DNA from: Halioglobus sp.
GTDB taxonomy: Bacteria > Pseudomonadota > Gammaproteobacteria > Pseudomonadales > Halieaceae
Direction: 5' to 3'
DNA length: 64,000 nt
Assembly: GCA_965227435.1 (NCBI GenBank)
Contig: CBDDGB010000002.1
Span: forward strand, 678,181-742,180
Position numbers and translations under genes: made by a program. The notes under the pieces are model-generated. The model was not told where the DNA came from. It ran no database searches and saw only the letters and a list, made by a program, of their open reading frames with translations. Below are positions 15,643-37,045 of the stretch, piece by piece (position 1 is the stretch's first letter; each line of letters starts with the position of its first letter).

Positions 15643-16377
15643 ATGAATGGCCCGCCGTCACCTCTTCGTCGCTTCGGGCGCGAGCTTAAACGCCGCGGCG
15701 TCACCCGCGCCTGCGTTCTCTATATTATCGCCTGCTGGGTCATCCTGCAGGTCGGCGATATCGTGCTGAACTCCCTCGAGTCGGACATGACTGCGGTTTC
15801 ACAGGGCCTGTTAGTGGCCGCCGTGCTGGGGCTGCCCGTCGTGATCACGATCTCCTGGTTTTACCAGTTCTCAGCCGCCGGCATTCGGCGCACGCCAGCG
15901 TTCACCGAGCGGCGAGTACTCGACAATATCGCCATCATCGACGACCGGCGCAAGGACCCGCCATCGCGGGGCTCACCCTCGCGACAGGAGGCGAGCTACG
16001 ACTGGGTTCTCGAGATCGACTCCGGCCCACTCTCAGGTAAACGCTACGGTGTAGACGCAGATGTCATCGTTGGCCGCTCCTCCAGTTGCGAATTGACGAT
16101 ACCGGTGGCGCATATTTCTCGGCGACACATGCGTTTTCGACTCGACGATGACGGACTGCTGCTCGAAGACCTCGATTCATCCAACGGCACAACGTTGAAC
16201 GGCCGAAAAATCAACGCCCCTACCCTCTTGCACCACCATGACACGATAGAAATTCCGAATGTAAAAATCAGAATCCTCGAAAATCTCGCAAGGTCGCGCG
16301 CGACCGATGCAGCCACTCAACACACACTGCAGATCGCCACAGAACGCGATACCCACAAAGTCTCTCGAGAAACTTGA
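15643..16377 (+). CDS. Membrane-anchored FHA-domain protein
   Basis: Two N-terminal TM helices; FHA motifs VGRS, ISRRH, DSSNGT. Confidence 0.85.
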   Translation: MNGPPSPLRRFGRELKRRGVTRACVLYIIACWVILQVGDIVLNSLESDMTAVSQGLLVAAVLGLPVVITISWFYQFSAAGIRRTPAFTERRVLDNIAIIDDRRKDPPSRGSPSRQEASYDWVLEIDSGPLSGKRYGVDADVIVGRSSSCELTIPVAHISRRHMRFRLDDDGLLLEDLDSSNGTTLNGRKINAPTLLHHHDTIEIPNVKIRILENLARSRATDAATQHTLQIATERDTHKVSRET

Positions 16378-16485: not shown

Positions 16486-18984
16486 TTGGCTGAGAGCTAC
16501 CACATCGCCATTATTGGCGCTGGTCCGGCTGGCCTTAGTGCAGCTGGTAGAGCTGCCCACCACGACAGGGAGTCAGGTGTAAGTTCACCCACCTATGTTC
16601 TCCTTGAAGGCTTCTCTACCTTCGCGAAAACCATCCAGAAGTACCAGAAAGGCAAGCACGTCATGGACACGCCTGGCTTCCTGGACCTGCGCAGTCCCGT
16701 GCCCTTTGTCGCGGGTAAGCGCGAGGAAATCCTGGGCGGCTGGCAAAACAGTATCGACACCGACAGCATCAACATTCGCTACAACAGCGAAGTCACGGCT
16801 ATCGAGGGCGAGCGCGGCAACTTCTCTATCAAGACATCAAGCGGCGAGACCATCAACGCCGAGCATGTCGTCATGTCAATCGGCACACAGGGCAACCCGC
16901 GGGCACTCGGCGTAGAAGGTGATGCTGAATCTGACTTTGTGATGTATACCCTTGATGATCCTGAAGAATTCCAGGGCGAGAGCATCGTTGTGGTGGGCGC
17001 CGGCGACGCCGCAATCGAGAACGCCATCGCGCTCGCCGAGTACAACAAGGTCTACATAATCAACCGGCGGAACGAATTCAGCCGCGCCAAAGACGGCAAC
17101 CTCAATGCAGTGCTCGCGGCTATCAACGACAAGGGCCGCGACTTCCACTGCTTCTACGAGACCAACGTGGGCGGCCTCGAACTGCCCGGCGAGCCCGGCA
17201 GCGCGGGCGCCATCATCCTCAATACCGCGACCGGTGAGGAGCGCGTCGAGTGCCATCGCATTATCGCCCGCCTCGGCACCCTCCCCCCGCGCAAATTCGT
17301 CGAGTCCTGCGGCATCGAGATCTCCAGCCCCAGCGCTGACGCGGTGCCGGACGTCGACAACGAATACATGAGTAACGTCCCCGGTCTTTACGTAATCGGG
17401 GCGCTGGGTGGCTACCCGCTGATCAAGCAGGCAATGAACCAGGGTTACGACGTGGTGGAATACATCCACGGCAATCACGTCGAACCGGTCGATACGCCGA
17501 TCCTGAAGAAGAAGTTCCAGGGTCTGCCGATCAAGATGCCGACCCCGGAAGACGTGCTGTCGCTGTACCAGTCAAAGATTCCCATGTTCCGCCGCATGAG
17601 CCCGTTGGCCTTCCGCGAACTCATTATCGAGAGCCGGATACTCGTGGGGCTCGAGCCCGCAGAGTACGAGCGCACGAGCAAGGATGAGGACGAGCACGCC
17701 ACCGTCTTCATCAAGGATGGCGAGCCCGTGTACCAGCACGGCGAATACTCCACGTCGTTCTACACGCTGGTCGAGGGCGATGTGCGCATGCAGCTCGACG
17801 AGGACGGCACGTGGCACAACATTTCGCCCGGCCAGTTCTTCGGCGAGATGAGCCTGATTTCGGGGCGCCCCCGCCAGGGCAGCGCCATTGCCGATCGCGA
17901 CTGCATACTGATCGAGACCCCTCGCCGGATCATGGTCAAGCTCATGAACTCGAACGAGGAAGTGCGCGCCGGCATCGACAGGGTCTTCATCATGCGCGCG
18001 CTGCAGGCCGCGTTCCAGCCACAGCTTTCACTCGACGCGCTTGCCGACATTGCAGGGCGTGTCGAGCCCTGCACCTTCAAGGCGGGCGAAACCATCTTCA
18101 GCCAGGGCGAATCCGGCGACCACCTGCACCTCGTCCGAAGTGGCACCGTGACCTTGTCACGTGGCGACCAGGACATGGTTGTCGCACAGCTACAGTCCGG
18201 CGAACTGGTGGGCCAGATGGCGCTCATGGGCGCGCCGGTGCGCCGCGACACCGCCACGGCTGCGGTGCGCACGGAGACACTGAAGGTCTACCGCGACGAA
18301 TTCCTGGCCATGGTGAACAGCCAGCCGGGGCACGTTGAAGAGCTGCAGGAAGAACTCAGCGAGGTGATACGCCAGACCAACGCCATGGGCTCGCAGCCGG
18401 AGTCTGCGCGCGCCATCGGCTTCCTGATGGACCAGGGCCTCGGCGAGGCCACCAATGCGCTGGTGATCGACGAAGCGCTCTGCGTTGGCTGCGACAACTG
18501 TGAGAAAGCCTGCGCGGAAACCCACGGGGGTATCTCCCGACTGCGCCGCGAGGAAGGCGCATCGCTCGCTTCACTGCACGTGCCCGTTGTTTGCCGTCAC
18601 TGCGAGCTGCCGCACTGCATGAAGGATTGCCCACCGGATGCGCTGCGTCGCGCCGCCTCGGGTGAGGTCTTCATCGATGCAGAAACCTGCATAGGCTGCG
18701 GCAACTGCGAAACCAACTGCCCGTACGATGCCATCAAACTCAGCTACCAGCCGGAGCCGAAGCCTTCGCTCTTCTCCTGGCTGTTCTTCGGTCGCGGCTC
18801 AGGCCCGGGCGAACAGGATGACTTCACGGCCACCGAAGCCTCCAAGAACTCAGGCAAGAAAGCCGTGAAATGCGATGCCTGCATGGATCTCGCGGGCGGC
18901 CCCGCCTGCGTTCGCGCGTGCCCCACAGGCGCCGCGGTCAGGCTGGGCCCCGAACAGTTCGTTGAACTGGTGGAGGCCCGCTAG
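16486..18984 (+). CDS. FAD/NAD(P)H oxidoreductase + two cNMP-binding domains + 4x[4Fe-4S] ferredoxin domain
   Basis: GAGPAG, GAGDAA..INRR; FFGEMSLISGRPR and LVGQMALMGAPVRR; 16 Cys in four clusters (CVGCDNCEKAC, CRHCELPHCMKDC, CIGCGNCETNC, CDACMDLAGGPACVRAC). Confidence 0.9.
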   Translation: MAESYHIAIIGAGPAGLSAAGRAAHHDRESGVSSPTYVLLEGFSTFAKTIQKYQKGKHVMDTPGFLDLRSPVPFVAGKREEILGGWQNSIDTDSINIRYNSEVTAIEGERGNFSIKTSSGETINAEHVVMSIGTQGNPRALGVEGDAESDFVMYTLDDPEEFQGESIVVVGAGDAAIENAIALAEYNKVYIINRRNEFSRAKDGNLNAVLAAINDKGRDFHCFYETNVGGLELPGEPGSAGAIILNTATGEERVECHRIIARLGTLPPRKFVESCGIEISSPSADAVPDVDNEYMSNVPGLYVIGALGGYPLIKQAMNQGYDVVEYIHGNHVEPVDTPILKKKFQGLPIKMPTPEDVLSLYQSKIPMFRRMSPLAFRELIIESRILVGLEPAEYERTSKDEDEHATVFIKDGEPVYQHGEYSTSFYTLVEGDVRMQLDEDGTWHNISPGQFFGEMSLISGRPRQGSAIADRDCILIETPRRIMVKLMNSNEEVRAGIDRVFIMRALQAAFQPQLSLDALADIAGRVEPCTFKAGETIFSQGESGDHLHLVRSGTVTLSRGDQDMVVAQLQSGELVGQMALMGAPVRRDTATAAVRTETLKVYRDEFLAMVNSQPGHVEELQEELSEVIRQTNAMGSQPESARAIGFLMDQGLGEATNALVIDEALCVGCDNCEKACAETHGGISRLRREEGASLASLHVPVVCRHCELPHCMKDCPPDALRRAASGEVFIDAETCIGCGNCETNCPYDAIKLSYQPEPKPSLFSWLFFGRGSGPGEQDDFTATEASKNSGKKAVKCDACMDLAGGPACVRACPTGAAVRLGPEQFVELVEAR

Positions 18985-18986
18985 GT

Positions 18987-19859
18987 ATGCACCAGAGTCT
19001 CCTGAGCTGGCAGCGCTTTCGCTATCTCTACGTGGCGCTCACCGTTGCAGTGGTGAGCATCCTCCTGTACGCGACCCAGGGCGGCAACTCGGCACAGCCT
19101 CCCAACGGCGGCACCTGGCAGGGCTACGTGCTCGGCACGGTAGGCGCACTGCTGATTGTCTGGCTCAGCCTGCTGGGCGTGCGCAAGCGCCAATACAGCT
19201 CCAACGTGGGTTCAGTGCAGGGCTGGGCCTCCGCGCATGTCTACCTGGGTATCGCGCTGTTGCTCGTCGCTACGCTGCACTGTGCCGCGCAGTTCGGGTG
19301 GAATGTACACACGCTGGCCTATGTGCTGATGTGCCTCGTGATCGGCACAGGCATCTACGGACTCTACGTTTACCTGCACCTTCCGCGTGCGCTGGCGCGC
19401 AACCACGCGGGGCGCGACGCGCAGAGCTGGATGAAAGAGCTCAGCGAAGTCGACGATGGCATCCGCGACGCAGCGAGCAAGGTCGACGCCGACCTGCAGT
19501 CCATGACGCTGAGCGCACTGGACCACACCCGACTGGGCGGCGGAGTCATGGCGCAGCTGTTTGCCCAGGACCGTTGCCGCGTGCGACAGGGTGGCAGCCT
19601 CGTGTCCAACAGCGGGCAGGACGTCATGATCAACGAGCTCTCGCGGCGCATACCCGATGCCAGCCGGGTCTCGGAAGCCGAAGTGCTGATCGAGCTACTG
19701 TCGATGTTTGGTCGTCGGCAGGTGATCCTGCAGCTGTTGCGCAAGGACGTGCAATACCGTGCACTCCTCAAGGTGTGGCTCTATTTCCACGTGCCCCTGA
19801 CGATGGCCCTACTCGTGGCCCTCACAGTGCACATTATTGTTGTCTTCCTCTACTGGTAG
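18987..19859 (+). CDS. Integral membrane protein, ferric-reductase-like putative di-heme b
   Basis: About 5 TM helices; His pairs HVYLGIALLLVATLH and HVPLTMALLVALTVH. Confidence 0.75.
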   Translation: MHQSLLSWQRFRYLYVALTVAVVSILLYATQGGNSAQPPNGGTWQGYVLGTVGALLIVWLSLLGVRKRQYSSNVGSVQGWASAHVYLGIALLLVATLHCAAQFGWNVHTLAYVLMCLVIGTGIYGLYVYLHLPRALARNHAGRDAQSWMKELSEVDDGIRDAASKVDADLQSMTLSALDHTRLGGGVMAQLFAQDRCRVRQGGSLVSNSGQDVMINELSRRIPDASRVSEAEVLIELLSMFGRRQVILQLLRKDVQYRALLKVWLYFHVPLTMALLVALTVHIIVVFLYW

Positions 19860-19863
19860 CGCC

Positions 19864-21594
19864 GTGCACTATCTGATCAGAACTCTCACGGGACGCGGCG
19901 GCGACACAGCCCTCGACACAGAGTACTCCGCTGACCAGCTGACGCTCGGCAGCGGTGACAAAGACACGGTGCAGCTGCCCGGCCTCTCCGGCCAGCTCAG
20001 GTTCAGCCCCTCGGGTGATGGCAGCGCAAGTTTCTCCGCCAAGGGCATCAAGGCCACCATAGGCAGCGACACCACCGCCAAGGCAAAGGTCGCGATAGGC
20101 GACCAACTCAAGGTACCTGGCTATGCGATCGAGGTCATCGCGGCGCCCACAGGCTTCGACTTTGCACTGCAGATTGCCTCGGAAGGCGTCAGCTACGCCG
20201 ACAGCATGGATATCGGCGAACGCCTGTGGAGCATGCGCCGCTCCAGCTGGCTTCTCGCGTCACTGGTGCTTGTTCTTTGCTTCATTATTCCACTTGGCGT
20301 GCTGCTTTCACCCGACACGGCCAAAACGCTGCGGGATGCACCGCTGCCCGACGACGGCATGTGGTCCAGCGGCCCGCTGATCAGCGCGCACTCAACAGCG
20401 GGCATAGCGGAGGACTGCCAGTCCTGCCATACAACCCCGTTCGTCATGGTGGAAGACCAGGCCTGCCTGGACTGTCACCGCGACATCAAGGAACACGTGG
20501 ACATCGGCATACACGGCGCGGAGGACTTTGCAGACGTACGCTGTGCCACCTGTCACCGCGAGCACAATGAACCCGCTGCCCTGGTGCGCACAGACAACGG
20601 CCTCTGCGTCGACTGCCACGCCGAGCCCGCCCGTTTCCCGAAAGCCGAGGGTATGGCCGAGGCGCACAAGTTCACGGCCGACGATCACCCCGAGTTTCGC
20701 ATCGATCTTCTGGTACCCAAGGGTCGCGGCGGCTCCATGACCTGGGTGCGCGAGGCGCGCCGGCTTAACGAACCGGGTCTCGTGGAGCAGTCCGGGCTCA
20801 AGTTCAATCACGATGTGCACATGAACCCTGCCAAGGTGAAAGACCTTGTCACCGACGAGGCGCTGGTGTGCGACAGCTGTCACCAGCTTGAGGCGGACAA
20901 CGAGCACTTCGCGCCCATCACCATGGACGGCGAGTGTCGCAGCTGTCACGAACTGACCTTCGACAAGTTCGCACCCAAGATGGAGTTGCCGCACGGCAAC
21001 ACCGAAGCCGCCCTCGTGGCTATGGAAGCGCACTATATTCGCCAGTTTACCGACCCGGAACTGCGCGCCAAACGCTCCAGCGTTCGCGGTTCGGACTCCA
21101 GGCGCCGTAAGCCCGGCAGCAAGCGCAATGAAGGTGAAACCTGCGAAGGCACACCCTTCGAGTGCGGCCGCCAGGAAACCGCCCGACAAGCCGGGGTACA
21201 GTTCAGCAAAACAGGCTGTGTAACCTGCCACAACGTGGTTGATTCCGAGAGCGACAACCTTCTCGACCGCTACTACGTGCAGCCGGTGAAAATCACGGGC
21301 GACTGGTACACGGGCAACCGCTTCGACCATCGCGCCCATATGGCCTTCCGGGGCGAGAACCAGGACGAGGTCTGCATGACCTGCCACGAGGTCATGACCT
21401 CTTCGGTGTCGGAGGACATCCTGATACCCGGCCGCGACAACTGCCTTGCGTGTCACGACGACAACCTGGGCGACACCACCGTTTACTGCGTCAGCTGTCA
21501 CGCATTCCACCTGCCCGCGGGCACACTGTCGACCGAGAGCCGCAACATCGGCTCGATGTCCGGGAGTCCACATGGCAGCACTGAGGGAGAATAA
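19864..21594 (+). CDS. Membrane-anchored decaheme c-type cytochrome with FHA-like N-terminus
   Basis: 10 CxxCH motifs; TM WLLASLVLVLCFIIPLGVLL; GTG start at 19864 preferred over TTG 19837. Confidence 0.88.
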   Translation: MHYLIRTLTGRGGDTALDTEYSADQLTLGSGDKDTVQLPGLSGQLRFSPSGDGSASFSAKGIKATIGSDTTAKAKVAIGDQLKVPGYAIEVIAAPTGFDFALQIASEGVSYADSMDIGERLWSMRRSSWLLASLVLVLCFIIPLGVLLSPDTAKTLRDAPLPDDGMWSSGPLISAHSTAGIAEDCQSCHTTPFVMVEDQACLDCHRDIKEHVDIGIHGAEDFADVRCATCHREHNEPAALVRTDNGLCVDCHAEPARFPKAEGMAEAHKFTADDHPEFRIDLLVPKGRGGSMTWVREARRLNEPGLVEQSGLKFNHDVHMNPAKVKDLVTDEALVCDSCHQLEADNEHFAPITMDGECRSCHELTFDKFAPKMELPHGNTEAALVAMEAHYIRQFTDPELRAKRSSVRGSDSRRRKPGSKRNEGETCEGTPFECGRQETARQAGVQFSKTGCVTCHNVVDSESDNLLDRYYVQPVKITGDWYTGNRFDHRAHMAFRGENQDEVCMTCHEVMTSSVSEDILIPGRDNCLACHDDNLGDTTVYCVSCHAFHLPAGTLSTESRNIGSMSGSPHGSTEGE

Positions 21595-21597
21595 AAC

Positions 21598-23793
21598 ATG
21601 AAATGGCGTGCACTATTGCTCAGCGGGGTTCTTGTCCTCGGAGCCTGCGGAGGCGGCGGAGGTAGCGGCGCACCGGGCCAGGGTTCAGCACCCGGCGATG
21701 ACCCTGCCGGTCGTTCATGCGACGGCTTCTGCGCAGATGCGGGCGCACCGATCTTCCTGACCCAGGCAGACGTCAAACGCATTCTCGCGCAGGCCGTGCA
21801 CCAGGCCGATGCGCTCGGCGCAGAGCAGGTCACCGTCGCCGTTGTCGACCGCGTTGGCAACGTGCTCGCCATCCACCAGAAAGGCGGCGGACAGATTCTG
21901 CGGGTCACCACCGACGACCCCAACGAGGTGCGCGCCGCCCTCGACGGCCTGACGATTCCAGCGGAGTTCAGCCCGGACACGCTCGCAGCCCTGGCCAAGG
22001 CGATAACCGGCGCCTATCTGTCGAGTGAAGGCAATGCCTTCACCACGCGCACCGCGAACCAGATTGTGCAGGAGCACTTCAACCCCGGCGAACGCAACCA
22101 GCCCAGCGGGCCGCTGTTTGGCGTGCAGTTCAGCCAGCTCGCCTGCTCCGACTTCATGATGCGCGCCACCGGCAACGGTGTCAGCGTGGGCCCGCACCGC
22201 TCTCCCCTCGGTATGTCTGCTGACCCGGGCGGCCTGCCGCTCTACAAGGACGGCACGGTAGTCGGCGGCATTGGCGTTCTGTCCGATGGGCTCTACAGCG
22301 TCGATAAGAACATCCTCAACAACGACCGCGACAACGACGAAATGATCGCGGTGGCCGGCTCCTTCGGCTTCGCAGCGCCCAAACCGCGCCGCGCCGATCG
22401 CATCACGGTCGAGGGCAAGACATTCCGCTATGCGGACGTAGACTTTGACAACCTGCCCGTGTCGCCCGAAGACGCGCCTGCCTACGAGAACGTTGGCGGC
22501 ATGCTGGTCGGCGTTAACGGCTATTACACTGTGACTGGCGACGACGACGCCGACATACTCGCGGGCACGGCGTTTACAACACCCGCCTCCGGCGTTCGCG
22601 CAGTCCAGGCCGGCGACTACCCCGCACAGGACGTCGCCGACTTCCAGGAACTGCAGGCCTTTACCTTCGTCGACCAGAACAACGCCGTCCGCTTCCCGCC
22701 CATCGATGGCACAGACGCCGCACAGCTTGCCCAGAATGGCGGCGCCGCGCCGATCAGCGCCGAGGAAGTCACGCAGCTGATGAAGAACGCCCTTGGCGTT
22801 GCACTGCGCGGCCGCGCGCAGATCCGCACCCCCCAGGGCACGCCGATTCGGGTAACCATCTCTATCGTCGACTCGCAGGGCACCATTCTCGGCATGATGC
22901 GAACCCGCGACGGCCCGATTTTCGGGTCTGACGTGTCACTGCAGAAAGCGCGCACCGCCGCCTTCTTCTCATCGACAGATGCCGCCGATGTCCTGCGCTC
23001 AATCGACGACCTGACATTCATTCCGCGACTTGAGGTAGAAGGCCTGCCGCCGCTCGGACCCGTTCCCAACCTGCAGTACATCGAGATCGACCCGGAGCTG
23101 GTTCCACCAGGACTCCCGGTACTGCGAACCTATAGCACGCCGGTCTTTTTCGCAGATTACGTGACAGCCGCCAAGGAGTTCATCGGCCCCACTGCACTTG
23201 AGGACGGTGTGGCCTTTGCAGATCGCTCCGGCGGTAACCTCTCGCGGCCCTTTTATCCCGACGGGATTCGCAATACCGCAAACGGTCCGTTCAGCAAGCC
23301 ATTTGAGCTGGCCGACCCGGGCAGCGTCGAGTGGAGCGTCTTCTCTAGCGGACTGCAGCTCGACCTCGTGCTCGGGCGAGTGCTGCAGCACGCGCTGTTC
23401 TCGCTGGGCGACCCCCGAGTCCCTGACGTTGGCGACAACTGCATCGGCGTTGAGGCGGAAGCACCCCGACGCATCAATAACGGCATCCAGATCTTCCCGG
23501 GCTCGGTGCCCATTTTCCGAGGTGACCAGCTGGTTGGCGCCATCGGTATCTCGGGCGACGGTATCGACCAGGACGACATGATTTCATTCCTCGGGCTGCA
23601 CGAGGCTGGCCTCGCGCTGACGGAAGCGCGACAGGCGGAGGTCGACGCCGGCACGTATACGCCGATCGGCAATGCACCAAAGGATATGCGTGCTGACCAG
23701 CTGCAGCCCAAGGGCGAGCGCTTGCGCTATATCCAGTGCCCGCAAACACCATTTATAGGTAGCAGCGAAAACTTCGTCTGCGACGGCAAATAG
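21598..23793 (+). CDS. Lipoprotein with two GlcG/HbpS-like heme-binding domains
   Basis: Lipobox LGAC; repeats VTVAVVD..G / LAKAITGA / GGLPLYKDGTVVGGIGV and VTISIVD..G / LQKARTAA / GSVPIFRGDQLVGAIGISG. Confidence 0.85.
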   Translation: MKWRALLLSGVLVLGACGGGGGSGAPGQGSAPGDDPAGRSCDGFCADAGAPIFLTQADVKRILAQAVHQADALGAEQVTVAVVDRVGNVLAIHQKGGGQILRVTTDDPNEVRAALDGLTIPAEFSPDTLAALAKAITGAYLSSEGNAFTTRTANQIVQEHFNPGERNQPSGPLFGVQFSQLACSDFMMRATGNGVSVGPHRSPLGMSADPGGLPLYKDGTVVGGIGVLSDGLYSVDKNILNNDRDNDEMIAVAGSFGFAAPKPRRADRITVEGKTFRYADVDFDNLPVSPEDAPAYENVGGMLVGVNGYYTVTGDDDADILAGTAFTTPASGVRAVQAGDYPAQDVADFQELQAFTFVDQNNAVRFPPIDGTDAAQLAQNGGAAPISAEEVTQLMKNALGVALRGRAQIRTPQGTPIRVTISIVDSQGTILGMMRTRDGPIFGSDVSLQKARTAAFFSSTDAADVLRSIDDLTFIPRLEVEGLPPLGPVPNLQYIEIDPELVPPGLPVLRTYSTPVFFADYVTAAKEFIGPTALEDGVAFADRSGGNLSRPFYPDGIRNTANGPFSKPFELADPGSVEWSVFSSGLQLDLVLGRVLQHALFSLGDPRVPDVGDNCIGVEAEAPRRINNGIQIFPGSVPIFRGDQLVGAIGISGDGIDQDDMISFLGLHEAGLALTEARQAEVDAGTYTPIGNAPKDMRADQLQPKGERLRYIQCPQTPFIGSSENFVCDGK

Positions 23794-23803
23794 GGACAGG
23801 GGG

Positions 23804-25684
23804 ATGAACGTGAAGAGAAGCCTACTGTACTCCGCTCTGGTCGCCGGCGTTACCGGCCTGACCAGCCTGTCCACTCCCGCGCTGGCGCAGGATGGCCTGG
23901 AGGCGGCCGAGAGCGCTGCCGAGGCCAGTGACGATCGCCGCGACCGGCGCCGTCGCACGGGCCGCAGCAATCGCAACGACGATTACACGCGAGAGATCGT
24001 TGACGAGACCGCACCCGGCGGTATCCGCGAGGAAAAGGTCGAGAAGCGCACCGGCCCCGGGGCCAGTCGCAACGTACTGCCGCGCAAGTACCGCAACATT
24101 CCCAGGCCGCAGCAGGACCAGTTTGTGGACGCCGTCCCGATGCCAGATCGCTGGCGCATCATGGACAACTTTTACCCTGGCAATATGTGGGACCCGTACA
24201 ACAACCAGAACCTGATCAAGGGCGACGTGCCGCTGCACGACGACTGGTTTGTCAACGTTATCGCCATCAGCGACACGGTGCTGGAGTTTCGCCAGGTACC
24301 TACCCCGGTCGGGGTGCAAAGCACGCGGGACCCGGGGTCTCTTGATGTACTCGGCGCCACTGAACAGCTCACGTTCAACCAGAACTTCCCTATCGAGTTC
24401 GTTTACTACCAGGGCAACACCGTCTTTAAGCCACCGGACTGGGAATTCCGCTTCACGCCGGTGTTTAACTACAACTACACCGAGCTTGAAGAAATCACAG
24501 GGGTCAACGCCAACCCCGACGACGAGGCGCGGCGGCACGATGACCATATCGGCATTCAGACGCTGTTCGTCGACAAGCACCTGAGAAACGTATCCAATCG
24601 GTACGATTTCGATAGCCTGCGCGTGGGCATACAGCCCTTCTCCAGTGATTTCCGCGGTTTCTTGTTCCAGGATGTGCCGTTCGGTGTGCGCCTGTTCGGT
24701 ACACGCAACAACAACATCTTCCAGTACAATCTGGCCTGGTTCCGCCGCATGGAGAAGGACACCAACTCCGGCCTGAACGATGTCACGGAAGACCTACGCG
24801 ATGACGATGTGTTTATCGCCAACCTGTTCTGGCAGGACCTCGGGATCAAGGGTTTCTTCTCCCAGGGAACGATCGCCTACAACCGCAACCGTGAAGATTC
24901 TATCTTCTACGACAGCAACAACTTCATCCAGCGACCGGCCTCCATCGGCCAGGAACGCCCGCGTACGTACGATGTGTACTATCTGGGCTACAACGGCGAC
25001 GGGCACATCGGTCGCCTGAACCTGACGGTGTCGGCATACCTCGCGCTGGGTGAGGAGAACAACGGCGTATTCAACGGCGAGAACTCGGACATCGAGGCAT
25101 TCTTCTTCGCTGCCGAACCGGGCATCGACTTCGACTGGATTCGCCTGCGCGGTTCATTCCTGTATGGCTCGGGCGACGACGATCCCTTTGACAACAAGTC
25201 AACGGGCTTCGACGCGATCTTCGAGAACCCGCAGTTCGCGGGTGCCGACACCAGCTACTGGATTCGCCAGGGCGTGCCGCTGATCGGCGGTGGCCGTGTG
25301 GCGTTGCAACAGCGCAACGGCGTGCTGAATTCGCTGGAGTCCTCGAAGGAACACGGTCAGTCCAACTTCACCAACCCCGGTGTGATCCTTGTCGGCGGTG
25401 GTGTCGACCTGGACATCCTGCCGGAGTTCCGACTCAGCTTTAACGCCAATTACCTGGCGTTTGCCGAGACGGAAGTCCTGGAAGTTGCGCGCGCCCAGTC
25501 TAACGTCGATGAGGAAATCGGCTATGACTTGTCAGCGGCGATTATCTGGCGTCCGTTCATGAGCCAGAATATCGTGGTGCGATTGTCCTACGCGCAGCTG
25601 ATCGCCGGCGATGGGTTCCAGGACCTGTACGGCGATGAGGACGACCCCTACTCCATCCTGCTCAACACGACACTGACCTTCTGA
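23804..25684 (+). CDS. Putative outer-membrane beta-barrel protein
   Basis: Signal peptide (..TPALA), alternating amphipathic strands, C-terminal LLNTTLTF. Confidence 0.8.
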   Translation: MNVKRSLLYSALVAGVTGLTSLSTPALAQDGLEAAESAAEASDDRRDRRRRTGRSNRNDDYTREIVDETAPGGIREEKVEKRTGPGASRNVLPRKYRNIPRPQQDQFVDAVPMPDRWRIMDNFYPGNMWDPYNNQNLIKGDVPLHDDWFVNVIAISDTVLEFRQVPTPVGVQSTRDPGSLDVLGATEQLTFNQNFPIEFVYYQGNTVFKPPDWEFRFTPVFNYNYTELEEITGVNANPDDEARRHDDHIGIQTLFVDKHLRNVSNRYDFDSLRVGIQPFSSDFRGFLFQDVPFGVRLFGTRNNNIFQYNLAWFRRMEKDTNSGLNDVTEDLRDDDVFIANLFWQDLGIKGFFSQGTIAYNRNREDSIFYDSNNFIQRPASIGQERPRTYDVYYLGYNGDGHIGRLNLTVSAYLALGEENNGVFNGENSDIEAFFFAAEPGIDFDWIRLRGSFLYGSGDDDPFDNKSTGFDAIFENPQFAGADTSYWIRQGVPLIGGGRVALQQRNGVLNSLESSKEHGQSNFTNPGVILVGGGVDLDILPEFRLSFNANYLAFAETEVLEVARAQSNVDEEIGYDLSAAIIWRPFMSQNIVVRLSYAQLIAGDGFQDLYGDEDDPYSILLNTTLTF

Positions 25685-25693
25685 GTGACTGCC

Positions 25694-28600
25694 ATGAGAA
25701 TCTCGACAATAAAACTCCGTAGCCTCTCTACCATCGGCCGTCTCGCGGCGGTCGCACTGGTGGCAGGTCTCGCATGGGCCGGCCCGGCAAGTGCCGCCTC
25801 AAAGCTCGTTGCCGTGGAGCGGGATTACATCACCGCACCAGATGCACCACCGAGCCAGAAGGCAGCAGCGGTCACGGCAAAGTCGGAAGGGTGCGAAAGC
25901 TGCCACACGGCAACGGACCAGAAGACCATGCACGCCAACCCGGCAGTCAAGCTGGGCTGTACGGACTGCCACGGCGGCAACGCCGAGGTCTTCCGGCCCG
26001 AAGGGTCATCGACGCTGGATGACGCGCCGTACCTCGCTGCCATGGAATCGGCGCACGTTCTGCCCCGCTACCCCGATGCCTGGCATTACCCCTCCAGCGC
26101 CAATCCCAAGCGCACCTATACGCTGCTCAACAAGGAAAGCCCGGAATTTGTGCGCTTTATTAATCCATCAGACTACCGGATTGCCCGGGAAGCCTGTGGC
26201 GCTTGCCACCTGCCGATCATCCAGGCCGCCGAACGCAGCCTGATGGCCACCTCCGCCATGCTCTGGGGTGGTGCCGCGTACAACAACGGTATCCTGCCGT
26301 TCAAACGCTACATCCTTGGTGAGGCCTACAACCGTGAAGGTGTCGGCACGAGCCTACAGAACCCGATCGAGCCGACCGAGGAAATGATTCAGGCGAGCAT
26401 TCTGCCGCAGATCTTCCCACTGCCCGCCTGGGAGACCATCCACCCCGGCGATATCTTCCGTGTTTTCGAACGCGGCGGCCGCAACATCAGCAACCTGTTC
26501 CCGGAAACCGGGCTGCCCAATGCGCTCGGACTACTGCAACGTATTGAGGAACCGGGACGGCCCGACTTCCGCCAATCCAACCGCGGACCGGGTACAGGCG
26601 CACGTATCGCGGTACCCGTGATCAACATTACCAAGACGCGACTCAACGATCCGCACACCTGGTTTATGGGCACCAACGACCAGCCCGGCGACTTCCGCCA
26701 CTCGGGCTGTGCATCGTGTCACGTGGTGTACGCGAACGACCGCGATCCGCGTCACTCCGCAGGCTACAGCCAGTTCGGCCACACCGGGCGCACGCAGACG
26801 GCCGACCCCACCATTTCCAAGGAAGAAAAGGGTCACCCGCTCAAGCATGAGTTCACACGTGCGATTCCGACCAGCCAGTGTATGTCCTGTCACATGCACC
26901 AGCCGAACATGTTCATCAATACGTACCTCGGCTACACGATGTGGGATTACGAATCGGATGCGCCGCGCATGTGGCCCGAAGAGCAGTTCTACCCCACGGA
27001 CGAAGAACGCCACAACACGCTGGAACGCAACCCGGAGGGCGCTGCACCGCGTGGCAAGTGGAAGGACATCGAGTTCGTAGAACAGGTGTCTGAAATGAAT
27101 GACCAGATGCAGGACACCCAGTTCGCCGACTATCACGGTCACGGGTGGAACTTCCGGGCGATCTTCAAGCGCGACCGCGTGGGCAACCTGCTGGACGCTG
27201 AGGGTAATATCGTCAGTGACGATGACCCCGAAAAGTTCGACAAGGCGGTGCACATGTCCTCGATCCACGTGGATGTGGGAATGCACTGTGTCGACTGTCA
27301 CTTCGCGCAGGATAACCACGGTAACGGGCATATTTACGGAGAGGTCGCGGCCGCCGTCGAGATCGACTGTAAAGACTGCCACGGCTCTGCCGACGCCTAC
27401 CCGAACCTCTACACCTCGGGACCGGCCGCACTCGAGGGCGGCACGAACCTGGGTGCTATTCGCAACCCGGACGGCCGCAGACGCTTTGAGTGGATTGGCG
27501 ACAAGCTGATACAGCGCTCGGTGCTGAACCCCGATCTTGAGTGGGAGATGAGCCTCGTCAAGGACACGGTGACACCTGGCCACGCCAGCTACAACAAGAA
27601 GGCGGCCCGCTCCAAGCTCATGAGCGACGACACCGAGAAGCAGAACTGGGGCCTCAGTGTTGCCAACGAAGACCGGGCGCACTCGGATGACGACATCGAG
27701 TGTTACACCTGCCACACGTCCTGGACAACAAGCTGTGGTGGTTGTCACCTGCCCATCGAGGCGAACAACAAGACAGAACGTCATCACTACGAGGGCGGCG
27801 AAACGAGGAACTATGCCACCTACAACCCACAGGTGGCGCGCGACCAGATCTTTATGATCGGACGGCGCGAAACGGCGAAAGGCGGCAAGATCGCGCCGGT
27901 ACGCTCTACCTCGGCGCTGGTGTTGTCTTCCACCAACTCCAACCGCGAGAAGATCTACGTACAGCAGCCGCCGATCGCATCGTCTGGCTACAGCTCGCAG
28001 GCCATGAACCCGCACTTCCCGCACACGGCGCGTAAGACCGAGACTCGCGTGTGTGACGACTGTCACCTCTCGAAAGAGAAAGACAACAACGCGATCATGG
28101 CGCAAACGCTGATGTACGGCACCGACTTCATCGACCTGCTCGGTTACCACGCTTACGTGGGCGGTGAAGAACACATTACGCCTGTACAGGTCACGGAGTG
28201 GCAGGAACCGCAGGCGGTAATCGGCAGCTATCTGCAGCGTTACGCCTACCCCGACTACTTCGGTGAACACCAGGCGAATGGCAAAGTGCTGAAACACGCC
28301 TACCCGCACGGCAGCGGCCGCGCGGCGTGCATCCAGCTACGCGGTGAATACCTCTTCGTAGCCGAGGGTGATCGCGGCATGCAGGTGTACGATGCCGCCA
28401 GCGTCGGCAACAAGGGTATCTCGCAACGCGTGATAACCGCGCCGTTCAGCCCGCTGGGCCACGACACGCGCATCGAGAGCAAGAACGCCACCTGCGTTGC
28501 CCTCTCGACGACCCAGCCTGTCGCACCGGAGCGCAACGAGGGCGACCTGATGCGCGTGACCAACCAGGAGCAGCCGTTCCAGGCGCACTATACGTACGCG

Positions 28601-29434
28601 TTTATCACGGACTCCGAGGAAGGCCTGATCCTGACCAACATGGACACGCTCATGGATGGCGAGCCGCGCAACAACTTCATGGAGCGCCAGCTGACCTGGA
28701 ACGAGGGCGGCATTCTCGACGGCGCGCGGCACATCATCCTTGGCGGCTACTACGCCTACATCGTCGCCGATGCTGGCCTGGTCGTGCTGAACCTCGAGGA
28801 CCCGCTCAACCCGATCCACGAGGCAACGGTGCCGCTGAACGATGGTCACTCGGTCGCACAGCAGTTCCGTTACCTGTTCGTGACCGATGCCGATGGCCTC
28901 AAGGTGATCGACATCACCCACCCACCGAAGCCGCAGCTCGTGGAAGGCAGCATGATTCCACTCGCCGAGGCCGGCAGGTTGCACCTTGCACGCACGTACG
29001 CTTACGTGGCGGCGGGTTCAGAGGGAATGGCTATCGTGGATATCACCAGGCCTGAGAGCATGAAGCTCTACCAGATGTTCAGCGATGGCCTTGTAGACAG
29101 TCAGGATGTTACTGTAGCCACGACCAACGCATCGCTGTTCGCCTACGTGGCAGATGGCCGCGGTGGCCTGAAAGTAATACAGCTGACCTCGCCCGAAAGC
29201 CAGCCCAAGTTCTACGGCTTCAGCCCGGAACCCAAGCCAGTGCTGATTGCGAGCTACCCGACCAAATCGCCGGCGCTGTCGCTGTCGCGAGCCCTTGAGC
29301 GGGACCGCGGTGTTGACGAGACCGGTGGCCAGGTCGCGGTATTCGGACGTGTGGGCTCGCGCCCGCTGAACCTGGAAGAGATGCAACGCCTCTTCCTCGA
29401 TGATCAAGGCAAACCATGGTATGTAGAAAACTAG
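25694..29434 (+). CDS. Exported decaheme c-type cytochrome with C-terminal LVIVD-repeat domain
   Basis: Signal peptide (..GPASA); 10 CxxCH motifs; repeats such as YLFVTDADGLKVIDITHP and YAYVAAGSEGMAIVDITRP; alternative GTG start 25685. Confidence 0.88.
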   Translation: MRISTIKLRSLSTIGRLAAVALVAGLAWAGPASAASKLVAVERDYITAPDAPPSQKAAAVTAKSEGCESCHTATDQKTMHANPAVKLGCTDCHGGNAEVFRPEGSSTLDDAPYLAAMESAHVLPRYPDAWHYPSSANPKRTYTLLNKESPEFVRFINPSDYRIAREACGACHLPIIQAAERSLMATSAMLWGGAAYNNGILPFKRYILGEAYNREGVGTSLQNPIEPTEEMIQASILPQIFPLPAWETIHPGDIFRVFERGGRNISNLFPETGLPNALGLLQRIEEPGRPDFRQSNRGPGTGARIAVPVINITKTRLNDPHTWFMGTNDQPGDFRHSGCASCHVVYANDRDPRHSAGYSQFGHTGRTQTADPTISKEEKGHPLKHEFTRAIPTSQCMSCHMHQPNMFINTYLGYTMWDYESDAPRMWPEEQFYPTDEERHNTLERNPEGAAPRGKWKDIEFVEQVSEMNDQMQDTQFADYHGHGWNFRAIFKRDRVGNLLDAEGNIVSDDDPEKFDKAVHMSSIHVDVGMHCVDCHFAQDNHGNGHIYGEVAAAVEIDCKDCHGSADAYPNLYTSGPAALEGGTNLGAIRNPDGRRRFEWIGDKLIQRSVLNPDLEWEMSLVKDTVTPGHASYNKKAARSKLMSDDTEKQNWGLSVANEDRAHSDDDIECYTCHTSWTTSCGGCHLPIEANNKTERHHYEGGETRNYATYNPQVARDQIFMIGRRETAKGGKIAPVRSTSALVLSSTNSNREKIYVQQPPIASSGYSSQAMNPHFPHTARKTETRVCDDCHLSKEKDNNAIMAQTLMYGTDFIDLLGYHAYVGGEEHITPVQVTEWQEPQAVIGSYLQRYAYPDYFGEHQANGKVLKHAYPHGSGRAACIQLRGEYLFVAEGDRGMQVYDAASVGNKGISQRVITAPFSPLGHDTRIESKNATCVALSTTQPVAPERNEGDLMRVTNQEQPFQAHYTYAFITDSEEGLILTNMDTLMDGEPRNNFMERQLTWNEGGILDGARHIILGGYYAYIVADAGLVVLNLEDPLNPIHEATVPLNDGHSVAQQFRYLFVTDADGLKVIDITHPPKPQLVEGSMIPLAEAGRLHLARTYAYVAAGSEGMAIVDITRPESMKLYQMFSDGLVDSQDVTVATTNASLFAYVADGRGGLKVIQLTSPESQPKFYGFSPEPKPVLIASYPTKSPALSLSRALERDRGVDETGGQVAVFGRVGSRPLNLEEMQRLFLDDQGKPWYVEN

Positions 29435-31703: not shown

Positions 31704-31727
31704 GGCAGCCAGGCAAGGAGAACCATC

Positions 31728-31826
31728 ATGGCAGAAGAGCATCAACCGATCGGCTGGCAGTACATCTGGGGAGTCGCAATCGTGGGCACCGCCCTCGGAA
31801 TAGCGCTCGTTTACGTACTCCTGTAA
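31728..31826 (+). CDS. 32-aa membrane microprotein paralogous to the PP2C C-terminal helix
   Basis: AAGGAG RBS 31715-31720; MAEEHQPIGWQYIWGVAIVGTALGIALVYVLL*; not in the ORF track. Confidence 0.8.
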   Translation: MAEEHQPIGWQYIWGVAIVGTALGIALVYVLL

Positions 31827-31858
31827 ACGCAGTCGACGGAGAATCTGGGAGAAAGAAC

Positions 31859-33834: not shown

Positions 33835-33914
33835 GGTCCGACCCGGCCGAATTTTTAATGACGATCTGCGGCTCTTGGCCTAGTATATAACTGCTCGCCG
33901 ACAACACTAATTAC

Positions 33915-35408: not shown

Positions 35409-35426
35409 ACCGCCACCGGGCACAGT

Positions 35427-37004: not shown

Positions 37005-37045
37005 CTCGTGCTGCATTAAAGGGCCCAACCTAAGAGGACTTGACC

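What the first reader, a model, noticed from the sequence alone, without database searches (positions are those of the whole stretch)
18987..19859. Stand-alone NOX/ferric-reductase-like heme b membrane subunit
Seen: two His pairs, each 14 residues apart, on predicted TM3 (HVYLGIALLLVATLH) and TM5 (HVPLTMALLVALTVH). Established: NOX/FRD proteins ligate two b hemes with His pairs 13-14 apart on TM3 and TM5, and carry a fused FAD/NADPH domain. Inference: a split NOX-like architecture in which the adjacent flavo-Fe-S protein supplies the dehydrogenase part.
Basis: partly seen in the sequence, partly recalled or inferred. Interest (0 to 1): 0.6.

Follow-up and report, generated by a model that had tools for sequence, protein, structure and literature searches.

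The report
Two-haem membrane relay of electron-export operon
This gene most likely encodes a five-helix membrane protein holding two b-type haems that passes electrons from a cytoplasmic NAD(P)H-linked flavin/iron-sulfur protein to a ten-haem cytochrome outside the inner membrane; the family was already described from sequence in 2017 but has never been tested at the bench.

Summary
ORF 18987-19859 (+) encodes a 290-aa protein with five membrane helices. H84/H98 lie on helix 3 and H268/H282 on helix 5, each pair 14 apart. These four His are 4 of only 9 invariant columns among 88 relatives of 31-51% identity.

- **Same as NOX/FRD:** ligand pattern and N-in topology.
- **Not shown to be a family member:** no PF01794 match, five helices rather than six, and only sub-threshold PF01292 hits in shifting register. 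Profile and fold comparisons were inconclusive.
- **"Split NOX" logic is supported:** a flavo-Fe-S gene lies upstream in 67 of 69 parsed loci and a cytochrome gene with at least 8 CxxCH downstream in 66. Three species of one genus fuse flavoprotein, Fe-S domain and this domain into one 1118-1135-aa chain. This genome also holds a second, fused version.
- **Differs from NOX:** the partner is a TrxR-type flavoprotein with a polyferredoxin domain, and the likely acceptor is a decahaem cytochrome c, not O2.

It is not new. He et al. 2017 described this five-helix protein with two WX3HX13H motifs in PCC3/PCC4 clusters. Elbon et al. 2024 named the equivalent PtdF "ferric reductase-like". This scan has also met homologues on other DNA. 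Function is untested.

The parts
18987..19859 (+). Gene for the 290-aa five-helix putative di-haem b membrane protein (the 'IMP' of PCC4-type clusters, PtdF-like)
   Evidence: ORF. More than 2710 homologues and 1863 representatives at 50% identity. AF2 pLDDT 96.
18972..18976 (+). GGAGG ribosome-binding site, 10 nt before the ATG. The upstream gene's stop is at 18982-18984.
   Evidence: Read from the sequence.
19095..19127 (+). Conserved periplasmic loop 1-2 (QPPNGGTWQGY, residues 37-47) with no Lys or Arg
   Evidence: N40 G41 G42 W44 G46 Y47 invariant in A1/A6. Side assigned by the positive-inside rule.
19182..19202 (+). Cytoplasmic loop 2-3 start, R66-K67-R68-x-Y70-x-S72. It corresponds in position to the NOX B-loop.
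   Evidence: R68 invariant and R66/K67 at least 90% conserved in 88 sequences. Side assigned by the positive-inside rule.
19215..19283 (+). Helix 3 with W80-x3-H84-x13-H98. H84 (19236-19238) is the predicted inner-haem ligand and H98 (19278-19280) the outer-haem ligand.
   Evidence: Motif as defined in PMC5566968.
19308..19310 (+). H108, a nearly invariant fifth His at the periplasmic start of helix 4 (N106-V-H108-T). Its role is unknown.
   Evidence: Invariant in A1/A6 and at least 90% conserved in A2.
19305..19376 (+). Helix 4 with the S/T121-G122-x-x-G125 motif (TGIYG here)
   Evidence: G122 invariant and G125 at least 90% conserved. SGXXG motif of PMC5566968.
19377..19772 (+). Cytoplasmic helical insert of about 130 aa between helices 4 and 5. 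With the extensions of helices 4 and 5 it forms a second bundle stacked under the membrane bundle.
   Evidence: AF2 secondary structure. Whole-model matches to double four-helix-bundle sensor domains, Z 10-12. 19 K+R.
19773..19853 (+). Helix 5 with W264-x3-H268-x13-H282. H268 (19788-19790) is the predicted inner-haem ligand and H282 (19830-19832) the outer-haem ligand. The C-terminus is periplasmic.
16486..18984 (+). Upstream partner gene: an 832-aa cytoplasmic flavoprotein (Pyr_redox), two cNMP-binding domains and a DmsB-like polyferredoxin domain (residues about 640-832, 18403-18981)
   Evidence: Pfam and NCBIfam. An Fe-S ORF lies upstream in 67 of 69 loci. Fused to the membrane domain in L145-L147.
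19864..21594 (+). Downstream partner gene: a membrane-anchored decahaem cytochrome c. Start is GTG 19864 (4-nt gap, as in relatives) or TTG 19837 (23-nt overlap).
   Evidence: Gaps of 3-7 nt in most relatives. A downstream ORF with at least 8 CxxCH in 66 of 69 loci.

Best explanation
The gene encodes the inner-membrane electron relay of a PCC4/ptd-type trans-envelope redox operon.

Shown from sequence and model: it is a five-helix protein, N-terminus in the cytoplasm and C-terminus in the periplasm. Helices 3 and 5 run in parallel from inside to outside and each carries W-x3-H-x13-H.

Inferred: H84 with H268 bind a b haem near the cytoplasmic face, and H98 with H282 bind a second near the periplasmic face.

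Inferred mechanism: the upstream cytoplasmic protein oxidises NAD(P)H at its flavin and passes electrons along its [4Fe-4S] clusters. This Fe-S domain docks on the cytoplasmic face of the membrane protein, at the RKR-Y-S loop and the 130-aa helical insert. Electrons cross the membrane haem to haem and leave to the decahaem cytochrome c encoded immediately downstream. From there they go on to the lipoprotein, outer-membrane barrel and outer cytochromes of the operon.

In logic it works like NOX/FRE, carrying cytoplasmic pyridine-nucleotide electrons through two stacked b haems. It is built from different parts and has a cytochrome c as acceptor rather than O2.

Outward flow is argued from thermodynamics only: NAD(P)H at -320 mV is far below typical haem potentials, and outward electron movement is favoured by the membrane potential.
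For: - **Haem ligands.** The four His are 4 of 9 invariant columns in 88 relatives. The W-x3-H-x13-H and S/T-G-x-x-G motifs match the published description of this protein group.
- **Fold.** The AF2 model has pLDDT 96. Its helix 2-5 bundle superposes on a designed two-haem bundle (7ah0, Z 8.6, rmsd 2.5 A over 103 residues).
- **Topology.** No K/R in loops 1-2 and 3-4, RKR in loop 2-3, and 19 K+R in the insert. In the fused forms the cytoplasmic Fe-S domain is joined about 25 residues before helix 1, which independently forces N-in.
- **Partner on the inside.** The upstream protein starts directly with its Rossmann motif and has no signal peptide. An Fe-S ORF lies upstream in 67 of 69 parsed loci, and at least 593 species genomes carry a relative.
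- **Natural fusion.** ORFs of 1118-1135 aa join flavoprotein, cNMP domains, Fe-S domain and this domain in three species that are 73-81% identical, with a conserved linker (domains).
- **Second system in this genome.** A 709-aa chain carries Pyr_redox_2, a BFD-like [2Fe-2S] domain and a 5-TM domain with two H-x13-H pairs. It is followed by a cytochrome with 10 CxxCH.
- **Complex prediction.** Fe-S domain plus this protein plus two haems scored ipSAE 0.52 against a best control of 0.26, graded weak support. The mark was reached by 58 of 80 solved complexes and 2 of 110 mismatched pairs. At 0.60 or under it was reached by only 7 of those 80, and by both mismatches that passed. The runs agree in at least 88% of contacts and the partner pLDDT is at least 83.
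- **Partner on the outside.** A downstream ORF with at least 8 CxxCH is present in 66 of 69 loci, at gaps of 3-7 nt in most relatives.
Against: - No haem binding, redox activity or complex has been measured for any member.
- The complex-prediction pass is weak, and such a pass is more often wrong than right unless the prior was high.
- No sequence or fold search ties the protein significantly to any solved haem protein.
- He et al. report the same kind of protein in PCC3 and PCC4 subgroup I clusters that lack the Fe-S gene. A cytoplasmic Fe-S donor is therefore not universal for this protein type, and a quinone site cannot be excluded.
- The direction of flow rests on thermodynamic argument only.
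- The role of the nearly invariant H108 is unexplained.
Confidence: 0.6

Rival explanations
1. It is a quinone-active cytochrome b, as in the model of He et al. 2017. The two haems connect the periplasmic cytochrome chain to the membrane quinone pool, as in cytochrome b of bc1, CybB or the hydrogenase and formate-dehydrogenase b subunits. Electrons might enter from an extracellular donor such as Fe(II). The flavo-Fe-S protein would then be a side input or a regulator.
For: Published proposal. The same protein type occurs in clusters without the Fe-S gene, namely PCC3 and PCC4 subgroup I. Pfam PF01292, whose members are quinone-reactive, matches 60 of 88 relatives at E up to 0.1, best 3.8e-8, and none of those inspected reached the cut-off. 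E. coli CybB appears among the fold matches (5oc0, Z 7.7, rmsd 3.5 A, 130 residues aligned).
Against: In this subfamily the Fe-S flavoprotein gene is almost always adjacent, and in one genus it is fused. The PF01292 hits are below the cut-off and shift register, with helix 3 or helix 5 each aligning to the one double-His helix of b561. The His distribution also differs: b561 has His on helices 1, 2 and 4, whereas here two helices each carry two. No quinone-site motif could be tested. The closest relatives are heterotrophic marine Halieaceae. The two readings are not mutually exclusive.
Confidence: 0.2
2. It is a true NOX-type oxidase. The outer haem reduces O2 directly to superoxide on the periplasmic side, and the cytochromes are accessory.
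For: The His geometry and topology are those of NOX/FRD. Conserved polar residues Q102, N106 and H108 lie near the predicted outer haem.
Against: The NOX-specific His four residues after the second helix-3 ligand (His-119 of NOX2) is Gln102 here. The gene is followed by a decahaem cytochrome gene in 66 of 69 loci. There is no PF01794 match.
Confidence: 0.07
3. Electrons flow inwards. The module takes electrons from the cytochrome chain and delivers them through the Fe-S clusters to reduce NAD(P)+ or another cytoplasmic acceptor.
For: PCC3 and PCC4 clusters were first found in Fe(II) oxidisers and were modelled with inward flow.
Against: This is argued from established thermodynamics, not tested. 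Reducing NAD(P)+ (-320 mV) from haem c or Fe(II) is uphill. Inward electron movement also works against an inside-negative membrane potential, and the module has no evident coupling site.
Confidence: 0.05
4. It is not a haem protein. The conserved His bind another metal or serve a structural or transport role.
For: No experimental haem data exist for any member. Stray weak Pfam hits to CopD and other membrane families occur in a few relatives.
Against: Four invariant His at two matched depths on two parallel helices, each preceded by Trp at -4, is the classical bis-His di-haem arrangement. The operon is otherwise made of redox proteins.
Confidence: 0.05

Closest known systems
Conserved inner-membrane protein ('IMP') of the putative porin-cytochrome clusters PCC3/PCC4 (He et al. 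2017, Front Microbiol 8:1584, PMC5566968)
   Same: Five helices, WX3HX13H on helices 3 and 5, and SGXXG on helix 4. It lies in a cluster with a porin and multihaem cytochromes. The Fe-S gene is directly upstream, as in PCC4 subgroup II.
   Different: The cluster here has a different cytochrome set: a TM-anchored decahaem, a decahaem with LVIVD repeats and a c554-like cytochrome, with no tetrahaem found. It also has a tandem HbpS-like lipoprotein and FHA/PP2C/kinase genes. The FAD and Fe-S modules are on one chain. He et al. proposed a quinone-active role and inward flow. Direct sequence comparison with their proteins was not done.
PtdF of the ptdABCDEFG operon (Elbon, Stewart and Glass, bioRxiv 10.1101/2023.11.21.568154)
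   Same: It is described as a transmembrane 'ferric reductase-like' protein encoded between a cNMP/4Fe-4S protein (PtdE) and a decahaem cytochrome (PtdG). This is the same gene order as here.
   Different: In ptd the FAD/NAD(P) oxidoreductase (PtdC) is a separate gene, whereas here it is fused to the cNMP/Fe-S part. The function of Ptd is stated to be completely unknown. Sequence identity to PtdF was not tested.
Ferric reductase domain superfamily: NOX/FRE transmembrane domain, MsrQ/YedZ, STEAP (Pfam PF01794; Zhang et al. 2013, PMC3591440)
   Same: Two His on helix 3 and two on helix 5, 13-14 apart, giving an inner and an outer b haem. N-in topology, a basic loop 2-3, and Trp four residues before the first helix-5 His. 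The last is seen in my MsrQ and bacterial NOX-like alignments as W140/H144 and W173/H177. The job is the same: carrying cytoplasmic reducing power across a membrane.
   Different: Five helices rather than six, and a 130-aa insert in loop 4-5. There is no PF01794 match. The donor is a TrxR-type flavoprotein plus [4Fe-4S] clusters instead of an FNR-type FAD/NADPH domain or a soluble flavin reductase. The acceptor is probably cytochrome c.
Prokaryotic cytochrome b561 family (Pfam PF01292: CybB, FdnI, HyaC)
   Same: It is the Pfam family most often hit: 20.1 bits for this protein, and 60 of 88 relatives. CybB is among the fold matches (Z 7.7). It too is a di-haem four-helix membrane bundle.
   Different: All scores inspected are below the 30.1-bit cut-off and the register is inconsistent. 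b561 has four helices with His on helices 1, 2 and 4. It is quinone-reactive and has no cytoplasmic Fe-S partner of this kind.
Tmc/Hmc/DsrMKJOP-type transmembrane redox complexes of sulfate reducers (from my own knowledge, not tested here)
   Same: The overall wiring is the same: a cytoplasmic Fe-S protein, a membrane di-haem cytochrome b and a periplasmic multihaem cytochrome c.
   Different: Their b subunit is NarI/HdrE-like and their Fe-S subunit HdrD-like. Electrons flow inwards to sulfate reduction, and they have no flavin or NAD(P)H module.

Membership tests
Ferric reductase domain (FRD) superfamily / NOX | Four canonical haem His: two on TM3 and two on TM5, 13-14 apart (Zhang et al. 2013) | tested here: met
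   H84/H98 and H268/H282 are each i/i+14 and invariant in 88 relatives.
Ferric reductase domain (FRD) superfamily / NOX | N-terminus cytoplasmic, with TM3 and TM5 running from inside to outside | tested here: met
   Positive-inside rule. In the natural fusions the cytoplasmic Fe-S domain is joined just before TM1.
Ferric reductase domain (FRD) superfamily / NOX | Six transmembrane helices | tested here: not met
   There are five helices. The chain ends at W290, right after TM5.
Ferric reductase domain (FRD) superfamily / NOX | Match to Pfam PF01794 at or above its 28-bit cut-off | tested here: not met
   No hit at E up to 0.1 for this protein. Only 5 of 88 relatives match, best E 1.4e-3. The genome's true PF01794 member lies elsewhere.
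Ferric reductase domain (FRD) superfamily / NOX | Profile-profile homology to MsrQ or NOX transmembrane domains | tested here: inconclusive
   hhalign gave 0.2% against MsrQ and 3.4% against bacterial NOX-like proteins. The positive control, MsrQ against NOX-like, reached only 5.7%, so the test had no power.
Ferric reductase domain (FRD) superfamily / NOX | Fold similarity to solved FRD structures | tested here: inconclusive
   STEAP1 8ucd scored Z 6.9, rmsd 5.0 A, 150 residues aligned. This is within the noise range for helical bundles.
Ferric reductase domain (FRD) superfamily / NOX | FNR-type FAD/NADPH dehydrogenase domain, fused or supplied (NOX/FRE subclass) | tested here: not met
   The partner has Pyr_redox_2/3, two cNMP_binding domains and Fer4 domains. 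It has no FAD_binding_8 or NAD_binding_1/6, unlike the true bacterial NOX-like proteins.
Ferric reductase domain (FRD) superfamily / NOX | NOX signature His four residues after the second TM3 ligand (His-119 of NOX2) | tested here: not met
   The residue at position 98+4 is Q102, invariant in close relatives.
Prokaryotic cytochrome b561 (PF01292) | Match at or above the 30.1-bit cut-off, in a consistent register | tested here: not met
   This protein scores 20.1 bits. The relatives inspected reach 27-28 bits at most, and helix 3, 4 or 5 aligns to different profile parts.
Prokaryotic cytochrome b561 (PF01292) | Four helices with haem His on helices 1, 2 and 4 (two on helix 4) | tested here: not met
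   In the family alignment A4 the invariant His are H21, H54, H146 and H160. Here there are two His on each of two helices.
Prokaryotic cytochrome b561 (PF01292) | Fold similarity to CybB or FdnI | tested here: inconclusive
   5oc0 scored Z 7.7, rmsd 3.5 A, 130 residues aligned. Plant b561 4o6y scored Z 8.1. Both are in the noise range for helical bundles.
PCC3/PCC4 inner-membrane protein group (He et al. 2017) | Five predicted helices | tested here: met
PCC3/PCC4 inner-membrane protein group (He et al. 2017) | WX3HX13H on helix 3 and on helix 5 | tested here: met
   W80-H84-H98 and W264-H268-H282. W80 and W264 are at least 90% conserved.
PCC3/PCC4 inner-membrane protein group (He et al. 2017) | SGXXG on helix 4 | tested here: met
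   The family consensus is S-G-x-x-G, and this protein has T121-G122-I-Y-G125. G122 is invariant.
PCC3/PCC4 inner-membrane protein group (He et al. 2017) | Encoded in a cluster with a porin and multihaem cytochromes, with the Fe-S gene upstream (subgroup II) | tested here: met
PCC3/PCC4 inner-membrane protein group (He et al. 2017) | Direct sequence homology to the published PCC4 proteins or to PtdF | not tested
   No reference sequence from those papers was available through the tools.
Any b-type cytochrome | Binds haem b | not testable with these tools
   Needs a pyridine haemochrome or spectroscopy on purified protein.

The most novel reading that the evidence does not exclude
The two-His-pair five-helix module is a reusable bacterial 'electron exit' domain that pairs with different cytoplasmic NAD(P)H flavo-Fe-S dehydrogenases. 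It is split from its partner here, fused in a Magnetococcus-like genus, and fused to a different flavoprotein with a [2Fe-2S] domain elsewhere in this genome. Together these would form a prokaryotic, modular counterpart of NOX/FRE. It would export cytoplasmic reducing power through a cytochrome chain to the cell surface under cyclic-nucleotide and phospho-signalling control, for example for regulated extracellular Fe(III) reduction or superoxide production by aerobic marine heterotrophs.
Probability: 0.3. Interest if true: 0.75.

Novelty: new member of a known kind. Interest (0 to 1): 0.42.

Why it matters
If the reading is right, this small protein is the step that carries electrons across the inner membrane in an operon present in at least 593 species genomes. 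That operon could link cytoplasmic NAD(P)H directly to the cell surface without passing through the quinone pool. No such route has been shown biochemically in Gram-negative bacteria.

It would bear on extracellular iron reduction, on superoxide production by marine heterotrophs, and on the unexplained PCC3/PCC4/ptd clusters of iron oxidisers and oxygen-deficient-zone bacteria.

As a finding on its own it is a rediscovery. The motif and the FRD comparison were published in 2017.

Tried and rejected
- **Sequence against solved structures.** The single protein gave no hit at E up to 10. The 88-sequence profile matched only coiled-coil noise in the insert.
- **Foldseek against PDB.** Nothing at E up to 1e-3 with either model.
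- **VIA-align.** Two wide searches and one second look gave only generic bundles. These were double four-helix-bundle sensor domains (Z 10-12), designed haem bundles (Z about 8.6), plant b561 (Z 8.1), CybB (Z 7.7) and STEAP1 (Z 6.9). All lie in the range the tool calls common for helical proteins, and no NOX chain was listed.
- **hhalign against three family alignments built here.** These were MsrQ, bacterial NOX-like and b561. All probabilities were low, and the MsrQ against NOX control also failed, so the test cannot decide. An earlier 99.8% 'control' was circular, because that alignment contained two NOX-like sequences.
- **ESM Atlas.** It returned only the protein's own unnamed or automatically named clusters.
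- **Fused forms in the protein database.** Of four singletons, P0272 looks frameshifted and was discounted. The fusion claim rests instead on three genome ORFs.
- **The search for related loci with the deep alignment.** It failed for lack of a conserved stretch and was rerun with the closer alignment.
- **Haem-to-His and haem-to-cluster distances.** They could not be measured because model coordinates are not exposed.
Full report
**What is there.** ORF 18987-19859 on the + strand encodes 290 residues. It starts at an ATG 2 nt after the stop of the upstream gene and 10 nt after a GGAGG. The closest database relatives are hypothetical proteins of Halioglobus, Parahaliea, Haliea and Kineobactrum, at up to 84% identity for named records. 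The window therefore probably comes from a marine Halieaceae gammaproteobacterium.

Hydropathy and an AF2 model built on 88 diverse relatives (pLDDT 96, pTM 0.88) agree on five membrane helices, at about 12-29, 44-68, 77-99, 107-130 and 263-289. Between helices 4 and 5 lies a helical insert of about 130 residues. Helices 4 and 5 continue into this insert, so the whole protein looks like two stacked helical bundles. The best whole-model matches are double four-helix-bundle sensor domains, at Z 10-12 and rmsd 6-7 A. That is an architectural resemblance only.

**The observation.** They lie on helices 3 and 5, and each His pair is i/i+14. All four His are invariant in 24 close homologues. In 88 representatives of 31-51% identity only nine columns are invariant, and four of them are these His. 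By a simple hypergeometric count the P is about 5e-5. Both pairs are preceded by a conserved Trp at -4 (W80, W264), and helix 4 carries S/T121-G122-x-x-G125. A fifth His, H108, at the periplasmic start of helix 4, is nearly invariant and unexplained.

**Topology.**
- Loops 1-2 (QPPNGGTWQGY) and 3-4 contain no Lys or Arg.
- Loop 2-3 starts with the conserved R66-K67-R68.
- The insert has 19 K+R.

This gives N-in and C-out. Helices 3 and 5 both run from inside to outside, so H84 and H268 sit at the inner level and H98 and H282 at the outer level. The natural fusions described below support this independently. In them a cytoplasmic Fe-S domain is joined about 25 residues before helix 1.

**Which family?**

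*Pfam.* Only a sub-threshold hit to prokaryotic cytochrome b561 was found (PF01292, 20.1 bits against a 30.1-bit cut-off). There was no hit to Ferric_reduct, PF01794. Across the 88 relatives the counts at E up to 0.1 were:

| Pfam family | Relatives matched (of 88) | Best E |
|---|---|---|
| PF01292 | 60 | 3.8e-8 |
| DUF4405 | 14 | 4.1e-5 |
| PF01794 | 5 | 1.4e-3 |

The PF01292 hits shift register. Helix 3 in some proteins, and helix 5 in others, aligns to the single double-His helix of b561. The similarity is therefore to a generic bis-His helix.

*Profile-profile comparison.* I built family alignments from genomes of the same class and from the protein database: MsrQ-type (A8), bacterial NOX-like with FAD/NAD domains (A7) and b561 (A4). 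The hhalign results were:

| Comparison | Probability |
|---|---|
| This family vs MsrQ | 0.2% |
| This family vs NOX-like | 3.4% |
| This family vs b561 (21 columns only) | 20.8% |
| Control: MsrQ vs NOX-like (both true PF01794 members) | 5.7% |

Because the positive control failed, this test had no power and decides nothing.

*Fold searches.* With the high-confidence model the natural haem proteins found were plant cytochrome b561 (Z 8.1), E. coli CybB (Z 7.7) and STEAP1 (Z 6.9). A designed two-haem bundle scored Z 8.6 at rmsd 2.5 A. All lie within the range the tool calls common for helical bundles.

*Conclusion.* The protein has the ligand pattern and topology of the FRD/NOX plan. It fails the testable membership criteria, having five helices rather than six and no PF01794 match. 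It also differs from b561 in where the His sit. It is best treated as its own family within the broad class of di-haem membrane bundles.

**It has been described before.** A note from an earlier follow-up in this scan pointed to two papers, which I read.

He et al. 2017 (PMC5566968) found a conserved inner-membrane protein of about 300 aa in their putative porin-cytochrome clusters PCC3 and PCC4. It has five helices, an SGXXG motif on helix 4 and WX3HX13H on helices 3 and 5. They compared it with the FRD domain and with cytochrome b, and proposed a quinone-active di-haem cytochrome b. In PCC4 subgroup II an Fe-S gene lies directly upstream. In one genome the two were annotated as a single gene.

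Elbon et al. (bioRxiv 10.1101/2023.11.21.568154) named a related marine operon ptdABCDEFG. They describe PtdF as a 'ferric reductase-like' membrane protein lying between a cNMP/4Fe-4S protein and a decahaem cytochrome, with function 'completely unknown'.

This protein meets every motif and context criterion of that group. Later papers only report PCC3 gene presence and expression. I found no biochemical work. Homologues on other DNA were also noted by this scan before, with the same reading.

**Context and partners.** The gene sits in a co-oriented run of genes:

| Coordinates | Product |
|---|---|
| 16486-18984 | 832-aa Pyr_redox flavoprotein with two cNMP domains and a DmsB-like polyferredoxin domain |
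| 18987-19859 | This gene |
| 19864-21594 | Membrane-anchored decahaem cytochrome |
| 21598-23793 | Tandem HbpS-like lipoprotein |
| 23804-25684 | Porin-like barrel |
| 25685-29434 | Multihaem cytochrome with LVIVD repeats |
| 29416-30720 | c554-like cytochrome |
| 30717-32941 | PP2C phosphatase, then a double-FHA protein |

The flavoprotein begins directly with its Rossmann motif, so it is cytoplasmic.

A scan of one genome per species found relatives in at least 593 genomes. In the 69 of the best 80 loci that my script could parse, 67 have an Fe-S ORF ending at the gene's start. In 66 a downstream ORF with at least 8 CxxCH follows, at gaps of 3-7 nt in most relatives. Most of the exceptions are contig ends.

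**Fusions.** A profile search of 401 genomes of the phylum found three species of one genus with the match inside open frames of 1118-1135 aa. One of them is very probably the Magnetococcus sp. YQC-9 MAG, to judge from the record name and contig length. I fetched the DNA. Each frame carries the flavoprotein motifs, the Fe-S motifs and both WX3HX13H motifs, and is followed by a cytochrome with 8-9 CxxCH. The three are 73-81% identical along their whole length, including the linker. The domain content was confirmed by Pfam on P0232. The fusion is therefore inherited and maintained, not a sequencing error. One database singleton, P0272, does look frameshifted and was discounted.

A second case lies elsewhere in this genome (G000:C2, about 130 kb upstream of the window). 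A 709-aa chain has Pyr_redox_2, Rubredoxin_C and a BFD-like [2Fe-2S] domain. It ends in a five-helix domain with RKR after helix 2, WRIFH-x13-H and a second H-x13-H, but without the long insert. It is followed by a cytochrome with 10 CxxCH. The same wiring thus occurs twice in one genome, once split and once fused.

**Complex prediction.** The Fe-S domain (alignment A5), this protein (A6) and two haems gave ipSAE 0.52 against a best control of 0.26, graded 'weak support'. The mark was reached by 58 of 80 solved complexes and 2 of 110 mismatched pairs. At 0.60 or under it was reached by only 7 of those 80, and by both mismatches that passed. The runs agree in at least 88% of contacts and the partner pLDDT is at least 83. 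Given the high prior from synteny and fusion I count it as a small addition.

**Mechanism.**
- Shown: the architecture, the conservation, the topology and the genetic linkage to a cytoplasmic flavo-Fe-S protein and to a decahaem cytochrome.
- Inferred: two b haems are ligated H84/H268 and H98/H282. The Fe-S domain docks on the cytoplasmic face. Electrons pass from NAD(P)H through flavin, the [4Fe-4S] clusters, the inner haem and the outer haem to the decahaem cytochrome.
- Direction: outward flow is argued from potentials and from the sign of the membrane potential only.

I put this relay model at 0.6 and haem binding as such at about 0.85. The main rival is the published quinone-active model at 0.2. 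It is supported by the existence of Fe-S-less clusters with the same protein type and is not exclusive of mine. Direct O2 reduction as in NOX (0.07), inward flow (0.05) and a non-haem role (0.05) are less likely, for the reasons given under each rival.

**Verdict.** In novelty terms this is a new member of a kind already described from sequence, and it remains biochemically untested.

Noticed in passing
Outside the window, same genome: G000:C2:547748-549874 (L148:5749-7875, minus strand), with neighbours at L148:1876-5727: A 709-aa single chain carries Pyr_redox_2, Rubredoxin_C and a BFD-like [2Fe-2S] domain, then a C-terminal five-helix domain with two H-x13-H pairs (H621/H635 and H688/H702). 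Downstream lie a cytochrome with 10 CxxCH, a Tll0287-like protein and a globin. It is a second, fused 'flavin, Fe-S, two-haem membrane domain, decahaem' system. Similar long frames of 712 and 689 aa occur in two genomes of the same order.
   Followed up: partly
L145:2380-5784, L146:2053-5421, L147:2350-5703 (three species of one genus; one is probably Magnetococcus sp. YQC-9): Natural single-chain fusions of 1118-1135 aa join the flavoprotein, two cNMP domains, the polyferredoxin domain and the five-helix membrane domain. They share a conserved linker and a long basic insertion in loop 2-3. They would suit structural work on the whole inner-membrane unit.
   Followed up: yes
window 19308-19310 (H108), with Q102 and N106: A fifth, nearly invariant His sits at the periplasmic start of helix 4, next to the conserved Q102 and N106. 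It is not needed for bis-His ligation of two haems. It could contact the outer haem, O2 or the cytochrome partner.
   Followed up: no
window 19837-19864: The decahaem gene's start is ambiguous. TTG 19837 would overlap this gene by 23 nt. GTG 19864 leaves a 4-nt gap, which matches the 3-7-nt gaps seen in most relatives.
   Followed up: partly
window 30717-39748: The cytochrome genes are followed by a PP2C phosphatase, a double-FHA protein, an autotransporter beta-domain protein, a Ser/Thr kinase and a Sel1/coiled-coil/caspase-domain protein. An FHA membrane protein also lies before the operon, at 15643-16377. The redox operon appears to be embedded in a phospho-signalling neighbourhood.
   Followed up: no
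P0271 (832 aa) and P0273 (824 aa), database singletons: Two further apparent fusions were found. One joins the N-terminal half of this protein to a multihaem cytochrome. The other joins a cNMP/Fe-S protein to about half of this protein. Each is known from one contig only and may be a frameshift or a gene-calling artefact.
   Followed up: no
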